A DNA stretch of 46,863 nucleotides from a virus. Lineage: Duplodnaviria; Heunggongvirae; Uroviricota; Caudoviricetes. Every line of letters begins with the position of its first letter. Within the stretch, counting starts at the first letter, position 1. Below, one piece after another: positions 1 to 46,249 of this stretch. Location: IMG/VR virus record IMGVR_UViG_2541047864_000006. The stretch is one strand, 5' to 3'. Under the pieces are notes generated by a model. It made no database searches. It had not been told where the DNA came from and saw only the letters and a program-made list of their open reading frames with translations. The position numbers and the translations under genes were made by a program.

Positions 1-319
1 TTGCCTCCCCCCCGTTGATGGGTAAAATAGCCGCAATTTTTCGTTTTCAACAAGCGCGGCGCGATGCCGCTTACTCAAGAAGAAAGAATTATGACGTTGT
101 CTCCTTATTTGCAAGAGGTGGCGAAGCGCCGCACTTTTGCCATTATTTCTCACCCCAATAATTAATCCCAAATTAAAGCTCTTTTACTCTTTCAAAATCC
201 TTTCAGTTAATTGAGGTCTGGTTATATAACTCATTTAAATACATATGGTTATGTGGCTTCTTTAATTGAAAATTCTTTCATGTAACTTTAAATCGATCAG
301 GTTGCTTTCATCAAAAATC

Positions 320-377
320 TGTACATATGCTTGTACATAATGTACAAAGCAGCAGAGGTGTTTTGCGATTTGTACAA
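320..377. promoter_or_regulatory. Cluster of four TGTACA(A) motifs in the 66 bp upstream of the integrase start; candidate repressor or Int arm-type binding sites
   Basis: TGTACA at 320-325, 332-337, 341-346, 371-376; same GTAC-centred motif as the operator half-sites at 7334-7352. Confidence 0.3.
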
Positions 378-385
378 GGTGAGTA

Positions 386-1609
386 ATGGCGCTGTCTGAT
401 GCGTGGTTGCGTTCAGTCGTTGGAAAGGAACGTGATAAGGTTTTGGTTAAATCCGATCGTGATGGTCTGTCTGTCAGAGTATCACCGAAAGGTCGCGTAG
501 TGTTCCAATATCGTTATCAATGGGCAGGGAAAGGTGAGCGTCTTGATATCGGAACTTACCCGGCAACTGGATTAAAAGAGGCCAGAGAAGAAGTTATCCG
601 TCTCCGTGGTGAACTCGAGTCAAACCGTAATCCACGATTGGTCAAGCAGGCTGAAAAACGAAAAGCTACTGAAGCCATGACGGTAGAGTCTGTGATCCGT
701 GCCTGGTATGAAGCATATTGTGTAAAAAATAAAAAGGGTTCTGAACAGATACTCCGCTCGTTTGAGCTGCACCTGTTCTCTAAAATCGGGAATATCCCTC
801 ACGATGCAGCTACATTGCATGATTGGTTAGAAGTCCTGGAGCCTCTTAGCACTAAGACTCCAGCAATAGCAGACCGATTGCTAATTAACGCAAAGCAGGC
901 CCATGTCTGGGCGTATAAGAGAAAGCTTATTGAAACTCGCCCGCTGTCGGATATCACGGGTAAAGATATGGATATCCGTAAAGGTCAGAAGAAACGGTTT
1001 CTGACACACGATGAAATTAAAATTCTTTATGCTGCGATCGATGGCTCTAGAATGGTTCCCAAATACAGGGCCTTCATTAAACTATTACTGCATTTTGGTT
1101 GCCGTAGTTCGGAGCTAATTACTGCTAGGGTGGGTGATTTTGATTTCATAAATAAGGTATGGACTGTACCACCTGAACGACATAAGACAGGGGACATAAC
1201 AGGCGAACCGCTAAAGCGGCCCATTATTGAACCGGTTGAAGAGCTTATAAAATACGTTATCTCTATGAACAACGGTTCCGATATGCTTTTTACTAAGGAA
1301 GGAAGCAGGGAGCCAGTCGGTAGGACATCATTACAGTCGCTGCCTTACAATTTAATGCAGTACGCGTGGCGGCGTTTAGGATATCAATTCCCTCATTGGT
1401 CTCTTCATGACTTGAGACGGACAGCACGAACAAATTTTTCTGATCTTACTGCGCCTCATATCGCAGAAATTATGCTTGGTCATAAGCTGCCAGGGGTATG
1501 GCAAGTTTATGATAAGAGCGATTATCTAGAAGAACAGCGTAAAGCTTACCTGGCATGGTGGAAGAGGGTTGAATCGATTGTTAATTGTACTATCTCTGAT
1601 TCAAACTGA
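386..1609 (+). CDS. int: Phage tyrosine integrase (site-specific recombinase)
   Basis: 407-aa ORF; C-terminal catalytic region with HDLRRT motif and downstream conserved Tyr region typical of tyrosine recombinases; located at prophage left end; SD-like AAGGTGAG upstream. Confidence 0.9.
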   Translation: MALSDAWLRSVVGKERDKVLVKSDRDGLSVRVSPKGRVVFQYRYQWAGKGERLDIGTYPATGLKEAREEVIRLRGELESNRNPRLVKQAEKRKATEAMTVESVIRAWYEAYCVKNKKGSEQILRSFELHLFSKIGNIPHDAATLHDWLEVLEPLSTKTPAIADRLLINAKQAHVWAYKRKLIETRPLSDITGKDMDIRKGQKKRFLTHDEIKILYAAIDGSRMVPKYRAFIKLLLHFGCRSSELITARVGDFDFINKVWTVPPERHKTGDITGEPLKRPIIEPVEELIKYVISMNNGSDMLFTKEGSREPVGRTSLQSLPYNLMQYAWRRLGYQFPHWSLHDLRRTARTNFSDLTAPHIAEIMLGHKLPGVWQVYDKSDYLEEQRKAYLAWWKRVESIVNCTISDSN

Positions 1610-1894
1610 CGGTTTGTATCACCTGAACATAACCAAATCTCCTAGCACACTTTGAGCGAGATGTGAGCGTTAAGTTTACGCCATTGTGTTGACATAAGAG
1701 GGCACGGGTATAGATATCATCACTATCCCTATGCCCCTAAATCGCTCCTGCTATTTGATAAATGCAGATGTTTACCACCAAATGTTTTTGATACTATAGG
1801 TTGATTCATGATTTACCTAGAAACTTAGTTGTAACGAAAACTTCTTAACGGACACTATCTGGATAAAGTTAGTTTTTTATTTAAGAGGGTTAAC

Positions 1895-2614
1895 ATGTCA
1901 AAGTTAAAAAATGAACCATTAGTAAGGGTATCAGAAGAAGACGGAATAGAAATAAGGAAGATCCAATATCCAGATAATACGATAGAAAGAGTTTATAAGC
2001 AGAAAGGTGTAATATTACCACGAATACCTTTAAAAGGCCGCTTTGTAGAACAATATGTGGCCTTACAGTTGCTGGATAAAGATCTTCGGAATGTTATTGG
2101 TTGGGAGAATATAATAAAAAACATTTGTAATAACATTAATAGAGAACAACACTTTATTTATCCTGATTTAGAAAAGAATCTAATATTAAAGTCTTTATTT
2201 ATATCAAAAGTTGTTACTTACGGTAAGTGTTTTACAGAGGCGAAAGGGCGTCGATTCACATTGCAGAGAAAGCATGTGCCAGAAAAATACAGAGATTTAC
2301 ATGATTCTATTATGAATGTTAGACATAACTTTGCTGCCCATAAAGGTGAATTTGAATATGATCAATGCGGCTTGGTTTTAATATTGCCTGGGACCAAGAA
2401 AAAAAGGTGCTATCATATTTTTTCAGAACTCAATCAAATAAATTACGGTAATAATGAGGAAGATGATGAACGTTTTTTTATGTTATATGATTCACTGCGT
2501 AAAGTCATTAAAGAAAAACGAGATAAATTAATTGAAAAAATATACGCTGAAAAGATTCATACTCAAACAATGGAGTATTGGTTGAGCCGAACAGGAAAAG
2601 AAACAGAGATTTAA
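1895..2614 (+). CDS. Hypothetical protein; AT-rich orphan cargo gene next to integrase (candidate exclusion/defence gene)
   Basis: 239-aa ORF with AGAGGG SD 6 nt upstream; markedly lower GC than flanking phage genes; flanked by AT-rich non-coding DNA; contains an R-x5-H (RHNFAAH) motif; no family recognised by eye. Confidence 0.6.
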   Translation: MSKLKNEPLVRVSEEDGIEIRKIQYPDNTIERVYKQKGVILPRIPLKGRFVEQYVALQLLDKDLRNVIGWENIIKNICNNINREQHFIYPDLEKNLILKSLFISKVVTYGKCFTEAKGRRFTLQRKHVPEKYRDLHDSIMNVRHNFAAHKGEFEYDQCGLVLILPGTKKKRCYHIFSELNQINYGNNEEDDERFFMLYDSLRKVIKEKRDKLIEKIYAEKIHTQTMEYWLSRTGKETEI

Positions 2615-2804
2615 TTTGTTCAGTATATAAAAGCTAATTTTTAAGGAGTAATTTTCAGATGATTAAAGCTGATTACATTGCGATAGGTACTCTACGACTA
2701 ACTTTTCAACAAGAGTAAGGGGGTAATCAATTTTATTTGTATCAATACATTTCTTGGCGATAATGTTTTGATCTTATCGATTCATGTCATATGGTCATTG
2801 GTAA

Positions 2805-2877
2805 CGTCCGCTCTTGGTAAAGAGTGGACGCTCAGATTAGGTTTGGCATCTAATCATAGATGTGTCAGCTCACATCT
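2805..2877. other. Two strong stem-loops (11-bp stem 2805-2830; 7-bp stem 2858-2877) between cargo ORF and xis; candidate bidirectional terminators/RNA processing sites
   Basis: cgtccgctctt-ggta-aagagtggacg and agatgtg-tcagct-cacatct inverted repeats read directly from sequence; no clear T-run. Confidence 0.4.
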
Positions 2878-2890
2878 AAGCTAATACATA

Positions 2891-3085
2891 TTAATCAATC
2901 ACTCCCGCAAATCTGTAAATCTTGTGTGATGCCCATTTATTTGGGCAGGATTTAATATCAGGATCTGGAAAGTCAGGCCTGTATTTCTGGCCAGTTCTCC
3001 TGTTTACGCTGTTCCAGCGAAGAACTGTCGATACTGAAACACCACAGAAATCGGCGACTTGTTTAGTTGTCATTAAGTTGTTCAT
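2891..3085 (-). CDS. Excisionase / AlpA-like HTH DNA-binding protein
   Basis: 64-aa ORF, strong SD (AGGAGGT) upstream of ATG at 3085; sequence TTKQVADFCGVSVSTVLRW is a typical Xis/AlpA helix-turn-helix; start overlaps stop of upstream gene. Confidence 0.6.
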   Translation of the reverse strand: MNNLMTTKQVADFCGVSVSTVLRWNSVNRRTGQKYRPDFPDPDIKSCPNKWASHKIYRFAGVID

Positions 3086-3705
3086 TACTTCACCTCCTGC
3101 GGCGGCTCCGGTAGCGGCATCCAGTGGGTTACTTTCGATGCCGGTTCTTCCCCATTGTCAGTAACTGCCCACCATTTGTTTCTCGAACAATCGTAATACC
3201 CTTCGAAGGTATCGCACTCAGTCCAGCCGTAAGACTTACCCCAACACCAAACATACTGTTTATCGTTCGGCATTCGCTCACTACAGCTTATCCAACCATC
3301 CGGAGTTACCGGAGAGTTGCCCGACAGCTCGTTCAACTTATAAGTCTGGCTTACAGGTTCGGCACCATTAAGCATGGAGGCGCGGCAGGCGTTCCAGCCT
3401 TCATCAAAGCCGACTATGCCATTATTTAAAGACGGACGAGCATCTGGCACCATCGGCACTGGCTTGGCTATATATAGCGGCTGAACATACCAGCCCTTTG
3501 ATAACCAACTGTCAGCAATGTTTTTACTCCTCGTTATTGCCGGAATACCTAAGCCATTTTCTGAATGCAGCCATGCCACCGGCTCCTCTTCTAGCGATGC
3601 CAGAGCAATTTCATAAGCACGGCGCTCAATATCGTCTCGAACCTCTAGGCTGCTGATTCGTTCTTTGATTTCTTTAATCAGTTCTTTATTGGTAAATGTG
3701 GTCAT
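3085..3705 (-). CDS. Phage protein, Trp-rich C-terminal region (DUF551/Ea22-like)
   Basis: 206-aa ORF translationally coupled in leftward early operon; W/C-rich C-terminus resembling DUF551 prophage proteins (recall only). Confidence 0.5.
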   Translation of the reverse strand: MTTFTNKELIKEIKERISSLEVRDDIERRAYEIALASLEEEPVAWLHSENGLGIPAITRSKNIADSWLSKGWYVQPLYIAKPVPMVPDARPSLNNGIVGFDEGWNACRASMLNGAEPVSQTYKLNELSGNSPVTPDGWISCSERMPNDKQYVWCWGKSYGWTECDTFEGYYDCSRNKWWAVTDNGEEPASKVTHWMPLPEPPQEVK

Positions 3706-4067
3706 TATGCTCCAGCCTCCGGCGCTTTTGGCATTACTGCCCAGTGAGTGATATTGAAGTTTTCAAGGTCCCCGACCTGAAATGTCCACTGCCATTCTCC
3801 GGTTTCTTTTTGTCCCCAGGTGTACCAGAGAGAACGCCAGCCAATCAGCCAGCCTTCTCCGTTAGCATCAAATAACAGAACACTTTCATTTGCTGGTGGC
3901 AGTTCAGCTGACACTGGTATTATTTTGTTTTCCAGTGCCGCACATTTAGCTTCAAGCGCGTCGAATTTACGTACCAGGTACTCAGCATTTGTTTCGTTCA
4001 CTTTCAGATCTCGCGGTACACATTTCCCGCGAAGAAACCCTTCCATTTCGAAAACATTCATGCGCAT
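3705..4067 (-). CDS. Hypothetical early protein (YfdS-like, 120 aa)
   Basis: 120-aa ORF, coupled to neighbours; size and position match CPS-53 yfdS (recall). Confidence 0.5.
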   Translation of the reverse strand: MRMNVFEMEGFLRGKCVPRDLKVNETNAEYLVRKFDALEAKCAALENKIIPVSAELPPANESVLLFDANGEGWLIGWRSLWYTWGQKETGEWQWTFQVGDLENFNITHWAVMPKAPEAGA

Positions 4068-5611: not shown

Positions 5612-5974
5612 TTAATGACCTGCTGCGCGTAGTTTTCCGTCAGGTTCACCGGCAAGAGTCAGTAATTGTCCCTGGTCTTCCTGCAGAATAGTCAGGCGAC
5701 CACCGCGATTGACATACATCGGCGTTTCGGTGGTGTCTTCTTCGGAAATTTTCCCGCGGTTAGTCGGGCGAACATATGAGAGTTTGTGTTTGATTTTCAC
5801 ACGGTTCTCATCAAATGGTTCGATTTCCAGGTTGAGTGAGACCTTACCTTTGGTTTTCGTGTTCATCACACCGGAAGCGACTTCACTGAGAACTGCGCCG
5901 ATTTTGGTTTCAAATACGCCGCCGTCCAGCTCCCCGATAAATGCCTGCACATCAGTACTGCGTTCGCTAGCCAT
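5612..5974 (-). CDS. YfdP-like hypothetical early protein
   Basis: 120 aa from ATG at 5974 preceded by AGGAG SD 7 nt upstream; the longer 197-aa track ORF is an unsupported upstream extension. Confidence 0.55.
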   Translation of the reverse strand: MASERSTDVQAFIGELDGGVFETKIGAVLSEVASGVMNTKTKGKVSLNLEIEPFDENRVKIKHKLSYVRPTNRGKISEEDTTETPMYVNRGGRLTILQEDQGQLLTLAGEPDGKLRAAGH

Positions 5975-45658: not shown

Positions 45659-46249
45659 TTATATGTCAGGTGTCTGAAGTTTTGCTTTGGCTCTTAAAAT
45701 GGTTTGCCGCGAGGTTTTGAATTCCCGGGCAATGGCACTTATACTTACACCTGACTTAATTCGTTCGAATACCACCTGTTTCTGTTCTTCATTTAACACA
45801 GGTGGTCGACCAAAACGTTTCCCTGCGCCCCGGGCTCTTACTATCCCGGAATGAGTGCGTTCAAGTAAAAGGTCTCGTTCAAATTCAGCGACTGCTGAAA
45901 TTACTTGCATCATCATTTTTCCTGTTGGACTGGTCAGGTCAATGCCCCCCAATGCTAAGCAATGCACTCTGATACCTGTTTCGGTCAGTTGTTCCACTGT
46001 TTTCCTGATATCCATTGCATTACAACCAAGGCGATCCAGTTTTGTCACAATCAATTGATCACCACATTTCAGGCGAGCAAGCAACCGGTTAAAACCAGGA
46101 CGCTCACTGGTTGCTGCTGAGCCGCTAATGTGTTCTTCGATTATTTGCTGAGGTTTGATTTTAAAGCCTGCACTTTCGATTTCCCGGCGTTGATTTTCGG
46201 TGGTCTGATCCAGAGTTGATATCCGACAGTAAGCAAAAATTCGAGACAT
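45659..46249 (-). CDS. pin: Serine DNA invertase (Pin/Gin/Cin/Hin family)
   Basis: 196 aa; N-terminal YCRISTLDQ catalytic-serine motif and C-terminal HTH; matches E. coli prophage Pin invertases by recall. Confidence 0.95.

What the first reader, a model, noticed from the sequence alone, without database searches (positions are those of the whole stretch)
1610..2890. AT-rich orphan gene next to the integrase: candidate single-gene exclusion/defence determinant
A 239-aa ORF (1895-2614) sits in a ~1.3-kb island of low GC between int and the xis-early operon, with its own SD and AT-rich promoter-like flanks. Integrase-proximal slots in enterobacterial prophages commonly carry exclusion genes (for example lit in e14). 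The protein has no family I can recognise; an R-x5-H motif (RHNFAAH) is reminiscent of HEPN-type RNase motifs. A 19-codon ORF with a strong AAGGAG SD (2659-2718) and two strong stem-loops (2805-2877) follow it.
Basis: partly seen in the sequence, partly recalled or inferred. Interest (0 to 1): 0.65.

Follow-up and report, generated by a model that had tools for sequence, protein, structure and literature searches.

The report
Prophage cargo gene, likely HEPN-type defence nuclease
A real, selected but uncharacterised 239-residue gene sits in a swappable cargo slot beside the integrase of an E. coli prophage and carries the catalytic signature of HEPN RNases, so it is a good but untested candidate single-gene anti-phage defence.

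Summary
ORF 1895-2614 (239 aa, WP_000040220.1) lies in a 32.7% GC island (~1600-2797) between a P4-type integrase and an xis-like gene. The host is a lambdoid prophage (99% identical to phage 2H10) inserted in prfC. The gene is under purifying selection (dN/dS ~0.1). It belongs to a family of 925 representatives at 50% identity (phrog_8440) with no match passing threshold in Pfam, NCBIfam or PADLOC.

Family members are cargo at the edges of unrelated mobile elements. These include the int-att slot of P2-like prophages, ends of lambdoid prophages, a filamentous Vibrio prophage and a conjugative element. Sibling prfC prophages carry other orphan genes in the same slot. DefensePredictor (Science 2026) lists this cluster as a predicted novel defence gene (log-odds 9.6), with no sign in the files held that it was tested.

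The 19-codon ORF and the stem-loops do not travel with the gene.

Best reading: a lysogen-expressed HEPN-like RNase giving abortive-infection-type defence (confidence ~0.5).

The parts
1895..2614 (+). 239-aa cargo gene (WP_000040220.1, phrog_8440). It has an N-terminal small beta domain (about residues 9-47) and a four-helix bundle (helices 49-79, 92-111, 130-148, 188-221) with a beta-hairpin insert (156-181).
   Evidence: ORF. dN/dS is 0.08-0.18 against copies that are 75-99% identical. AF2 models reach pLDDT 86.3 and 93.9. The profile search gave 925 family representatives at E<=1e-3.
2300..2347 (+). Codes for the predicted active-site segment H136-D-x5-R143-H-N-F-A-A-H149-K-G, an HEPN-like R-x5-H at the C-terminal end of helix 3.
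   Evidence: H136 128/128, R143 128/128, residue 144 H72/N54/D2, A148 123/128, H149 127/128, G151 124/128. Helix 130-148 in both models.
2219..2254 (+). [quoted passage not shown] It probably forms a second part of the active site.
   Evidence: Y109 128/128, K111 125/128, F113 123/128, G118 116/128, R119 128/128.
1738..1894 (+). 5' leader of 157 nt that travels with the gene. It includes the SD AAGAGGG at 1883-1889 and presumably the gene's own promoter or regulatory region, which is not located.
   Evidence: Homology to the 85%-identical copy in a different context (L036) spans window 1738-2622 only (alignment). The scan found no consensus promoter.
1610..1737 (+). Left part of the low-GC island. 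It is specific to this context and contains a hairpin at about 1697-1738 just after int.
   Evidence: Sibling prophages diverge from window position 1591-1660 onward. Fold, where the region as a whole is not significant (z -1.4).
2623..2797 (+). Right part of the island. It is AT-rich, specific to this context, and holds the 19-codon ORF 2659-2718, which is probably a chance ORF.
   Evidence: Not conserved next to the 85% homolog. The AAGGAG-ATG pattern is no more frequent than chance.
2805..2877 (.). Three stable hairpins between the convergent cargo gene and the xis-like gene. They are part of the conserved phage backbone. They are probably the terminator or processing region of the leftward early operon (inference).
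   Evidence: z = -6.2. Shared with L016, L019 and partly L018, which carry different cargo. No Rfam match. No T-run terminator.
386..1609 (+). P4-type tyrosine integrase (context), on the same strand as the cargo gene and 285 nt upstream of it.
   Evidence: Pfam Arm-DNA-bind_3, Phage_int_M and Phage_integrase. RefSeq annotation.
2891..3085 (-). 64-aa xis-like helix-turn-helix gene (context). It is a backbone gene, not a cargo-specific partner.
   Evidence: Its best Pfam matches (HTH_17, HTH_23, MerR) are all below their curated cut-offs. Retained in all four sibling prophages that carry other cargo.

Best explanation
The 239-aa gene is an accessory (moron-type) cargo gene of a temperate phage. 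It encodes a soluble cytoplasmic protein with a small N-terminal beta domain followed by a HEPN-like four-helix bundle.

Proposed mechanism (inferred):
- The protein is made in the lysogen and held inactive.
- Infection by another phage activates it, possibly through the N-terminal domain.
- A metal-independent RNase site then cleaves RNA. The site would be built from R143/H149, probably helped by H136, Y109, K111 and R119, and probably formed across a dimer as in other HEPN enzymes.
- Cleavage stops the infection, an abortive-infection or growth-arrest type of defence that benefits the prophage and its host.

Shown here: the gene is real and under purifying selection; it is swappable cargo at the edges of several kinds of mobile element; the signature is invariant and sits in the HEPN position of a confident model.

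Inferred: RNase activity, dimerisation, expression in the lysogen, the trigger, and the defence phenotype.
For: Gene reality and selection:
- dN/dS is about 0.10-0.18 over dS up to 1.5.
- The family has 925 representatives at 50% identity, all about 230-250 aa.

Cargo behaviour:
- It is in 71 of 5426 complete E. coli genomes.
- Sibling prfC prophages keep int and xis but carry four other orphan gene sets in the slot.
- Homologs at 37-42% identity are the last gene of the repressor-int operon of P2-like prophages. They overlap or abut the end of int and lie within 220 nt of the tRNA-Leu att site. This int-att interval is a documented minor defence hotspot (PMC13586616).
- Other members lie at prophage ends next to a tRNA-Pro-like att fragment (my reading of the sequence) and after the lysis cassette of a phage-like plasmid.
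- Further members are in a filamentous Vibrio prophage and on a conjugative element beside a Schlafen/AlbA_2 gene.
- All 23 IMG/VR copies lie within 0-4.9 kb of a viral contig end.
- No partner gene is conserved across these contexts.

HEPN signature:
- R143 is in 128/128 members and H149 in 127/128. The residue after R is always H, N or D.
- The motif is at the C-terminal end of helix 3, with a conserved insert between helices 2 and 3. These are the features listed for HEPN in PMC3710099.
- HEPN_AbiU2 is the only Pfam family hit by more than two of 128 members (5 hits, best E 0.0022).
- The one hit in a natural member that I could locate (P0155) covers helix 3 plus the motif.

Independent prediction:
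- DefensePredictor Table S10 lists cluster WP_000040220.1 with mean log-odds 9.62 (cut-off 4) as 'Predicted novel defense gene'.
- 45% of the 94 units tested in that study validated.
Against: - No experimental data exist for any family member.
- HEPN homology never reaches a curated threshold: 15 bits against a gathering score of 26.8 for HEPN_AbiU2, and only 5 of 128 members hit it.
- The window protein itself has no such hit.
- Foldseek against the PDB and BFVD gave nothing significant.
- hhalign against one validated RiboL-PSP-HEPN-like protein gave nothing.
- DefensePredictor's own HHblits and Foldseek steps found no defence homolog.
- The HEPN acidic E-x3-[KR] element is expected in helix 2. 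Here the comparable D/E61-x3-R65 with D63 is in the first long helix.
- AbiU2 (AbiUii) itself is not the component that confers resistance in Lactococcus (PMC13064643).
- No promoter was identified, and expression in the lysogen is inferred only from gene order.
Confidence: 0.5

Rival explanations
1. It is a defence or exclusion gene, but the mechanism is not a HEPN RNase. The helical bundle would act as a sensor, a binder or a different enzyme, and the conserved R/H/Y/K residues would bind a ligand or a phage protein.
For: All the location and cargo evidence, together with the DefensePredictor call, is independent of the fold assignment. Fold searches cannot separate this bundle from generic four-helix bundles such as chemoreceptor ligand-binding domains.
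Against: The exact R-[HND]-x3-A-H signature at the end of helix 3 matches the HEPN description too closely to be ignored. The only recurrent Pfam hit is a HEPN family.
Confidence: 0.15
2. It is an RNase toxin that serves the phage rather than immunity. It could be an addiction or stabilisation module for the prophage, with an unrecognised antitoxin such as a small ORF or an antisense RNA. Alternatively it could be a host-takeover or regulatory nuclease.
For: Many HEPN proteins are toxins of toxin-antitoxin pairs (PMC3710099). A short ORF with AAGGAG follows the gene in this window.
Against: No neighbouring gene or short ORF is conserved across contexts. The cassette shared with L036 ends 8 nt after the stop codon, and the SD-ATG pattern is at chance level. 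The xis-like neighbour stays with the backbone whatever the cargo. The gene is dispensable for the phage lineage, since sibling prophages lack it.
Confidence: 0.15
3. It is a lysogenic-conversion or regulatory cargo gene unrelated to phage-phage conflict, for example one that alters host physiology. A counter-defence protein is a less likely version of the same idea.
For: Prophage edge slots also carry virulence and fitness morons (general knowledge). All four alternative cargos in this slot are also of unknown function, so the slot is not proven to be a defence hotspot.
Against: The protein has no signal peptide and no transmembrane or DNA-binding features in the model. It is spread over siphovirus, myovirus, inovirus and conjugative-element hosts in several gammaproteobacterial genera. 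The int-att slot of P2 is documented to hold defence systems. The defence log-odds is high.
Confidence: 0.15

Closest known systems
HEPN superfamily RNases of single-gene abortive-infection systems (AbiD/F, AbiJ, AbiV, ApeA; Anantharaman et al. 2013, PMC3710099)
   Same: A conserved R-x(4-6)-H with a polar H/N/D after the R. The motif lies at the end of helix 3 of a four-helix bundle, with an insert between helices 2 and 3. The protein is small and cytoplasmic, has an extra N-terminal domain, and is carried singly on mobile elements.
   Different: No profile match reaches threshold for any HEPN Pfam family. Additional invariant residues (Y109, K111, R119, H136) define a distinct signature. A beta-hairpin is inserted between helices 3 and 4. 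The acidic motif sits in the first long helix rather than helix 2. No activity has been tested.
HEPN_AbiU2 (PF18734; AbiUii of Lactococcus lactis)
   Same: It is the only Pfam family that recurs among weak hits (5 of 128 members). The aligned stretch in P0155 covers helix 3 plus the R-N-x3-A-H motif (profile positions 113-142 of 193).
   Different: Scores are about 11-15 bits against a gathering score of 26.8, and the window protein itself does not hit. AbiUii is dispensable for AbiU resistance and even lowers it (PMC13064643), so the name does not imply a defence effector.
Tha (tail-activated HEPN anti-phage system) of Staphylococcus aureus prophages (PMC11087260)
   Different: Tha is 301 aa with Rx4H, and its neighbour 'xis' is really its inhibitor Ith. 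Here the xis-like gene stays with the phage backbone whatever the cargo and is absent from the P2-type and other contexts, so it is not a dedicated inhibitor. Sequence relationship to Tha was not tested.
Defence cargo in the int-att slot of P2-like prophages (PMC13586616) and P2/P4 hotspots (PMC9122126)
   Same: Distant family members occupy exactly the int-att interval of P2-like prophages, as the last gene of the repressor-int operon.
   Different: In the window the gene sits in a lambdoid prophage between int and xis. The family is not among the recognisable systems in PADLOC v2.
DefensePredictor predicted cluster WP_000040220.1 (Science 2026, PMC13092281, Table S10)
   Same: It is the same protein cluster.
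   Different: It is a prediction only. Text searches of the tables held found the accession in no table other than S10, and no mechanism or domain was assigned.

Membership tests
HEPN superfamily | Conserved R-x(4-6)-H motif | tested here: met
   R143 is in 128/128 and H149 in 127/128 diverse family representatives, with a spacing of 5.
HEPN superfamily | Polar residue (N, D or H) immediately after the conserved R | tested here: met
   Position 144 is H in 72, N in 54 and D in 2 of 128 members. The criterion is quoted from PMC3710099.
HEPN superfamily | Motif at the end of helix 3 of an up-and-down four-helix bundle, with an insert between helices 2 and 3 | tested here: met
   The AF2 models have helices 49-79, 92-111, 130-148 and 188-221. 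The motif is at 143-149 and the conserved loop at 112-129 (pLDDT 86.3 and 93.9). This rests on predicted models, not solved structures.
HEPN superfamily | Conserved acidic residue (E-x3-[KR]) in helix 2 near the active site | tested here: inconclusive
   E/D61-x3-R/K65 and D63 (126/128) are present but lie in the first long helix.
HEPN superfamily | Significant sequence or profile similarity to an established HEPN family | tested here: not met
   The best result is HEPN_AbiU2 at E 0.0022, about 15 bits against a cut-off of 26.8, in 5 of 128 members. Neither the protein nor the family profile matched any HEPN chain in the PDB by sequence. hhalign against one RiboL-PSP-HEPN-like protein gave probability 0.1. 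A full HHpred run could not be done.
HEPN superfamily | Structural similarity to solved HEPN domains beyond a generic helical bundle | tested here: inconclusive
HEPN superfamily | Metal-independent RNase activity with a dimeric composite active site | not testable with these tools
   This needs biochemistry or multimer modelling.
Known anti-phage systems (PADLOC-DB v2.0.0) | Match to a model of a known or candidate defence protein | tested here: not met
   There were 0 hits for the protein at E<=10. Only scattered single hits appeared among 128 members.
Prophage moron or variable cargo slot | Conserved flanks with alternative unrelated genes between them, and deviant composition | tested here: met
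   int and xis flanks are 84-96% identical, with four other cargo sets between them. Island GC is 32.7% against 49.7% for the window.
Prophage moron or variable cargo slot | Own promoter and terminator | tested here: inconclusive
   A 157-nt leader travels with the gene, but no consensus promoter or terminator was found.
HEPN-MNT or other two-gene toxin-antitoxin module; Tha-Ith pair | A conserved adjacent antitoxin or inhibitor gene | tested here: not met
   Neighbours differ in every context. The downstream mini-ORF is not conserved. The xis-like gene is backbone.

The most novel reading that the evidence does not exclude
The family could be a previously unclassified defence effector clade. 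Its active site (Y109, K111, R119, H136, R143, H149) and its N-terminal beta-domain sensor would work differently from canonical HEPN RNases, for example on a specific tRNA or rRNA target or on a non-RNA substrate. It would be triggered by a conserved component of incoming phages. It would be carried as a single-gene cassette by siphoviruses, myoviruses, filamentous phages and conjugative elements alike.
Probability: 0.2. Interest if true: 0.65.

Novelty: new variant of a known kind. Interest (0 to 1): 0.45.

Why it matters
If confirmed, this would add a compact single-gene defence family that current annotation tools (Pfam, NCBIfam, PADLOC) miss. It would also show that the int-xis slot of prfC-integrated lambdoid prophages is a defence or cargo hotspot, comparable to the int-att slot of P2-like phages. 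At least four further orphan cargos in that slot would then be worth testing. The invariant residues give immediate mutational targets. The gene is already flagged by a machine-learning screen, so the added value here is a mechanistic hypothesis (a HEPN-like R-x5-H site), the definition of the mobile cassette (1738-2622), and the exclusion of the neighbouring mini-ORF, hairpins and xis as partners.

Tried and rejected
Searches that gave nothing:
- Pfam, NCBIfam and PADLOC on the protein, on 23 members and on 128 members gave no match passing threshold.
- PHROGs gave only phrog_8440, of unknown function.
- Sequence and profile searches of the PDB gave nothing meaningful.
- Foldseek against BFVD and the PDB gave nothing significant. 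afdb50 was not available.
- A Pfam scan of sub-clade consensus sequences and of 10 further members located only two HEPN_AbiU2 hits, in P0155 and in one consensus.
- I tried to obtain genuine AbiU2 sequences for a profile-profile test. A word-indexed search with the 128-sequence profile returned only family members with no Pfam labels. E-value limits blocked a looser search. An E. coli AbiU2-like protein (WP_000153723.1) is named in DefensePredictor Table S5, but its sequence is not held.
- hhalign against a validated RiboL-PSP-HEPN-like protein gave no alignment.
- Rfam on 1-4000 found nothing relevant.
- Text searches for the accession, the PHROG id and the motif in paper bodies found nothing.

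Ideas rejected:
- The 19-codon ORF as an antitoxin or partner. It is not conserved, and its SD pattern is at chance level.
- The stem-loops as part of the cassette. They are backbone.
- The xis-like gene as a Tha/Ith-type inhibitor. It is backbone and is absent from other contexts.
- A membrane superinfection-exclusion protein. The model shows no transmembrane segment.
- The weak Tcp10_C, Sel1 and CorA Pfam hits, which are noise.
Full report
**Setting**

The window is a lambdoid prophage. Region 1610-2890 is 99.1% identical to Escherichia phage 2H10 (Glaedevirus) and 100% identical to a prophage of E. coli K56-43-un. In that genome the prophage follows holD-rimI-yjjG and a truncated 'hypothetical' stub. 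The stub corresponds to the prfC 5' fragment seen at window 91-165 ([22 protein letters not shown]; prfC identity is from my own knowledge of the K-12 gene order).

The gene order at the left end is as follows:
- int, 386-1609, + strand, a P4-type integrase with Arm-DNA-bind_3, Phage_int_M and Phage_integrase domains.
- The target ORF, 1895-2614, + strand.
- A 64-aa xis-like gene with sub-threshold helix-turn-helix matches, 2891-3085, - strand.
- A DUF551 gene and the yfdR/yfdQ/yfdP-type early-left genes on the - strand.

**Checking the observation**

- The ORF, its SD (AAGAGGG, 5 nt before the ATG), the RHNFAAH string (residues 143-149), the 19-codon ORF with AAGGAG, and the stem-loops are all present at the stated coordinates.
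- GC falls to 29-36% between about 1650 and 2850, against 43-51% on either side. The ORF is 31.4% GC and the window 49.7%.
- The stem-loop region folds into three hairpins at -40.2 kcal/mol, z = -6.2.
- The promoter and terminator scan found no + strand promoter and no intrinsic terminator in 1500-3200.
- The AAGGAG-N(4-11)-ATG pattern occurs twice in the window, against 2.9 expected. The 'strong SD' of the mini-ORF therefore carries no weight.

**Is it a real gene?**

Yes.
- Pairwise Nei-Gojobori estimates against copies that are 99%, 97%, 85% and 75% identical at the protein level give dN/dS of 0.08-0.18, with dS up to 1.5.
- Two of 16 near-identical IMG/VR copies carry frameshifts, both in A-runs (A8 to A9 at 2397-2404; an A6 run at about 2116). 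These look like homopolymer sequencing errors or slippage.
- One E. coli genome has an IS1 insertion and one has a partial copy.

**Extent of the unit**

- Four sibling prophages at the same prfC site share int (94.6-96.4% identical) up to window position 1591-1660. They resume homology at 2798, 2806, 2821 or 2869.
- Between those points they carry unrelated genes of 331, 342, 436+81 or 413 aa. The variable island is therefore about 1600-2797.
- The hairpins (2805-2877) and the xis-like gene belong to the conserved backbone.
- An 85%-identical homolog in a quite different context (L036, downstream of a long ORF and 1.5 kb from a viral contig end) shares only window 1738-2622 at the DNA level.
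- The mobile cassette is therefore a 157-nt leader, the ORF, and 8 nt after the stop codon.
- The mini-ORF and the hairpins are not conserved there.

**Family**

- The protein has no match passing threshold in Pfam, NCBIfam or PADLOC. It matches only phrog_8440, of unknown function.
- A word-indexed search found 25 clusters, the named ones all from Enterobacterales.
- An exhaustive profile search found 925 representatives at 50% identity with E<=1e-3, and 398 at E<=1e-10. Nearly all are 220-260 aa.
- Named members come from Serratia, Pantoea, Parendozoicomonas, Yersinia, Enterobacter, Citrobacter, Cronobacter, Leclercia and Vibrio, and all are annotated 'hypothetical'.
- In E. coli the gene is in 71 of 5426 complete genomes. 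In 70 of them int, the island and xis are contiguous.

**Conserved residues and fold**

- In an alignment of 128 diverse representatives (20-54% identical to the query), Y109, R119, H136 and R143 are invariant.
- D63, W70, K111, F113, G118, A148, H149 and G151 are conserved in at least 90%.
- The core signature is H136-[DE]-x5-R143-[H72/N54/D2]-x3-A148-H149-[SA]-G151.
- AlphaFold2 gives confident models: pLDDT 86.3 with 23 sequences and 93.9 (pTM 0.86) with 128.
- The model has a three-to-four-stranded N-terminal beta unit (9-47) and four long helices (49-79, 92-111, 130-148, 188-221).
- It also has a conserved loop between the second and third helices (112-129, YGKCFTxAxGRR) and a beta-hairpin (156-181) between the third and fourth.
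- R143 to H149 lies at the C-terminal end of the third helix and the start of the following loop.

**Comparison with HEPN**

The reference description of the HEPN superfamily (PMC3710099, read) lists these features:
- the Rx4-6H motif is the most conserved feature;
- the residue after R is typically N, D or H;
- HEPN domains are distinguished from other four-helix bundles by inserts between helices 2 and 3.

All of these are met here.

Direct homology evidence is weak but points the same way:
- HEPN_AbiU2 (PF18734) is the only Pfam family hit by more than two of the 128 members (5 hits, best E 0.0022).
- For the one natural member where I could see coordinates (P0155, E 0.015, 15.2 bits against a cut-off of 26.8), the hit covers residues 118-146, which is helix 3 plus RNTFTAH.
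- Foldseek found nothing significant in the PDB or BFVD.
- The HEPN acidic motif is ambiguous. A D/E61-x3-R65 element with near-invariant D63 exists, but in the first long helix.

I therefore treat 'works like a HEPN RNase' as the leading hypothesis, at about 0.6 given everything. Formal membership remains unproven.

**Genomic behaviour**

- Members 37-42% identical to the window protein are the last gene of the repressor-(accessory)-int operon of P2/186-like prophages. They overlap the end of int by 17-20 nt or follow it by 17-34 nt, and are then followed by host genes.
- In one Enterobacter genome the gene ends 220 nt from tRNA-Leu(taa).
- A 2026 survey reports the interval between int and att of P2 as a minor defence hotspot, holding 3% of P2 systems (PMC13586616).
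- Other members lie about 150 nt from a tRNA-Pro-like fragment at prophage ends (L012, L015, L038, my reading of the sequence). One of these is next to an icd-like fragment and one follows a umuC-type gene and tail-fibre assembly genes.
- Another member lies between the lysis cassette and the HNH/terminase genes of a plasmid whose flanking genes are all phage genes.
- Another is cargo of a 10.9-kb filamentous Vibrio prophage, whose depositors noted 'endonuclease'.
- Another is on a conjugative element beside a Schlafen/AlbA_2-HATPase gene and an SNase gene.
- Another is in a phage genome near DNA methyltransferases.
- All 23 IMG/VR loci have the gene within 0-4.9 kb of a contig end.
- No neighbouring gene is shared across these contexts, so it is a single-gene unit.
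- In the P2-type arrangement, co-transcription with the repressor and int would give expression in the lysogen. This is an inference from the known Pc/pL operon structure of P2 and 186.
- In the window the gene has the same orientation as int and is opposed to the early-left operon. No terminator is predicted between int and the ORF.

**Literature**

- The accession, the PHROG id and the motif are absent from searchable paper bodies.
- Table S10 of DefensePredictor (DeWeirdt, Mahoney and Laub, Science 2026, PMC13092281) lists WP_000040218.1 in cluster WP_000040220.1.
- The row gives mean log-odds 9.62 (sd 2.0, range 6.3-11.6, cut-off 4) and the label 'Predicted novel defense gene', with empty HHblits and Foldseek homolog fields.
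- That table holds 1,041 untested clusters from 3,000 E. coli genomes.
- The accession does not appear in the tables of cloned or validated units that are held. Some of those tables are truncated.
- In that study 42 of 94 tested units (45%) protected, and validation rose with log-odds.
- The closest functional analogue I found is Tha of S. aureus prophages (PMC11087260). Tha is a single HEPN RNase whose neighbouring gene, annotated xis, is really its inhibitor.
- Here the xis-like gene stays with the backbone regardless of the cargo and is absent from the other contexts. I therefore reject a Tha/Ith-type pairing.
- AbiUii (AbiU2) is dispensable for AbiU resistance in Lactococcus (PMC13064643), so the weak AbiU2 link speaks to fold, not function.

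**Verdict**

- The interpretation (a candidate single-gene exclusion or defence determinant with a HEPN-like motif) is supported by family-wide conservation, predicted topology, cargo behaviour across unrelated mobile elements, and an independent prediction.
- The mini-ORF, the hairpins and xis are not part of the unit.
- The function has not been demonstrated and HEPN membership is unproven.
- It is best described as a new variant of a known kind: an unclassified HEPN-like single-gene system carried as prophage cargo.
- Interest is moderate. It is a well-defined, testable candidate with clear mutational targets, but it is not surprising to a specialist and is already flagged in a public prediction list.

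Noticed in passing
window 1591-2869, compared with L016 2192-3853, L017 2241-3703, L018 2197-4093 and L019 2261-3839: The int-xis interval of prfC-integrated lambdoid prophages is a swappable cargo slot. Four sibling prophages carry unrelated orphan genes there: WP_000653746.1 (331 aa), WP_225092812.1 (342 aa), WP_015740443.1 with WP_000551783.1 (436+81 aa), and WP_015364392.1 (413 aa). None matches Pfam or PADLOC, apart from one weak 2TM-effector hit at E 0.0055.
   Followed up: partly
window 2805-2877: Three tandem hairpins (z -6.2) lie downstream of the xis-like gene in the conserved backbone. There is no Rfam match and no T-run. They may be the terminator or an RNA-processing element of the leftward early operon. 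They are present in L016 and L019, partly in L018, and absent in L017.
   Followed up: partly
window 2397-2404 and about 2111-2116: A-runs inside the ORF (A8 and A6) are the sites of the only frameshifts seen, in two IMG/VR copies (L039, L040). These could be sequencing errors or slippage-prone tracts.
   Followed up: partly
window 64-165: The 5' end of prfC ([22 protein letters not shown]...) is cut by the prophage. RefSeq annotates only a 69-nt 'hypothetical, incomplete' stub here, after yjjG. attR is not inside the window.
   Followed up: partly
L021 (PQ189351.1) 2670-3407: A family member (47% identical to a family consensus) is cargo of a 10.9-kb filamentous (Tubulavirales) Vibrio cyclitrophicus prophage, next to a 368-aa unknown gene. 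The depositors' note for it is 'endonuclease'.
   Followed up: no
L012 about 1100-1150, L015 about 2790-2840, L038 about 5806-5850: A conserved fragment resembling the 3' end of tRNA-Pro (TGGTCGGCACGAGAGGATTTGAACCTCCGAC...) lies about 150 nt upstream of three homologs. This places them right at a prophage attachment site. The identification is by eye; ARAGORN finds no complete tRNA there.
   Followed up: partly
L003 3063-6732; L006, L009 and L014 likewise: P2-like prophages that carry the homolog also have extra genes between the repressor and int: a Flk_N-domain protein of about 210 aa, followed by a DUF8087 protein or a 292-aa protein. The lysogenic operon of these phages therefore holds several accessory genes.
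   Followed up: no
NZ_CP151000.1 3739393-3741456 (hit H17): One E. coli genome has an IS1A insertion within the 1610-2890 region. I did not determine whether it interrupts the ORF.
   Followed up: no
window 45659-46249 (-): A 196-aa ORF at the right end of the window has the same length (591 nt) as the gene annotated 'invertase' next to the tail-fibre genes in phage 2H10. This suggests an invertible host-range segment. I did not check whether the two correspond.
   Followed up: no
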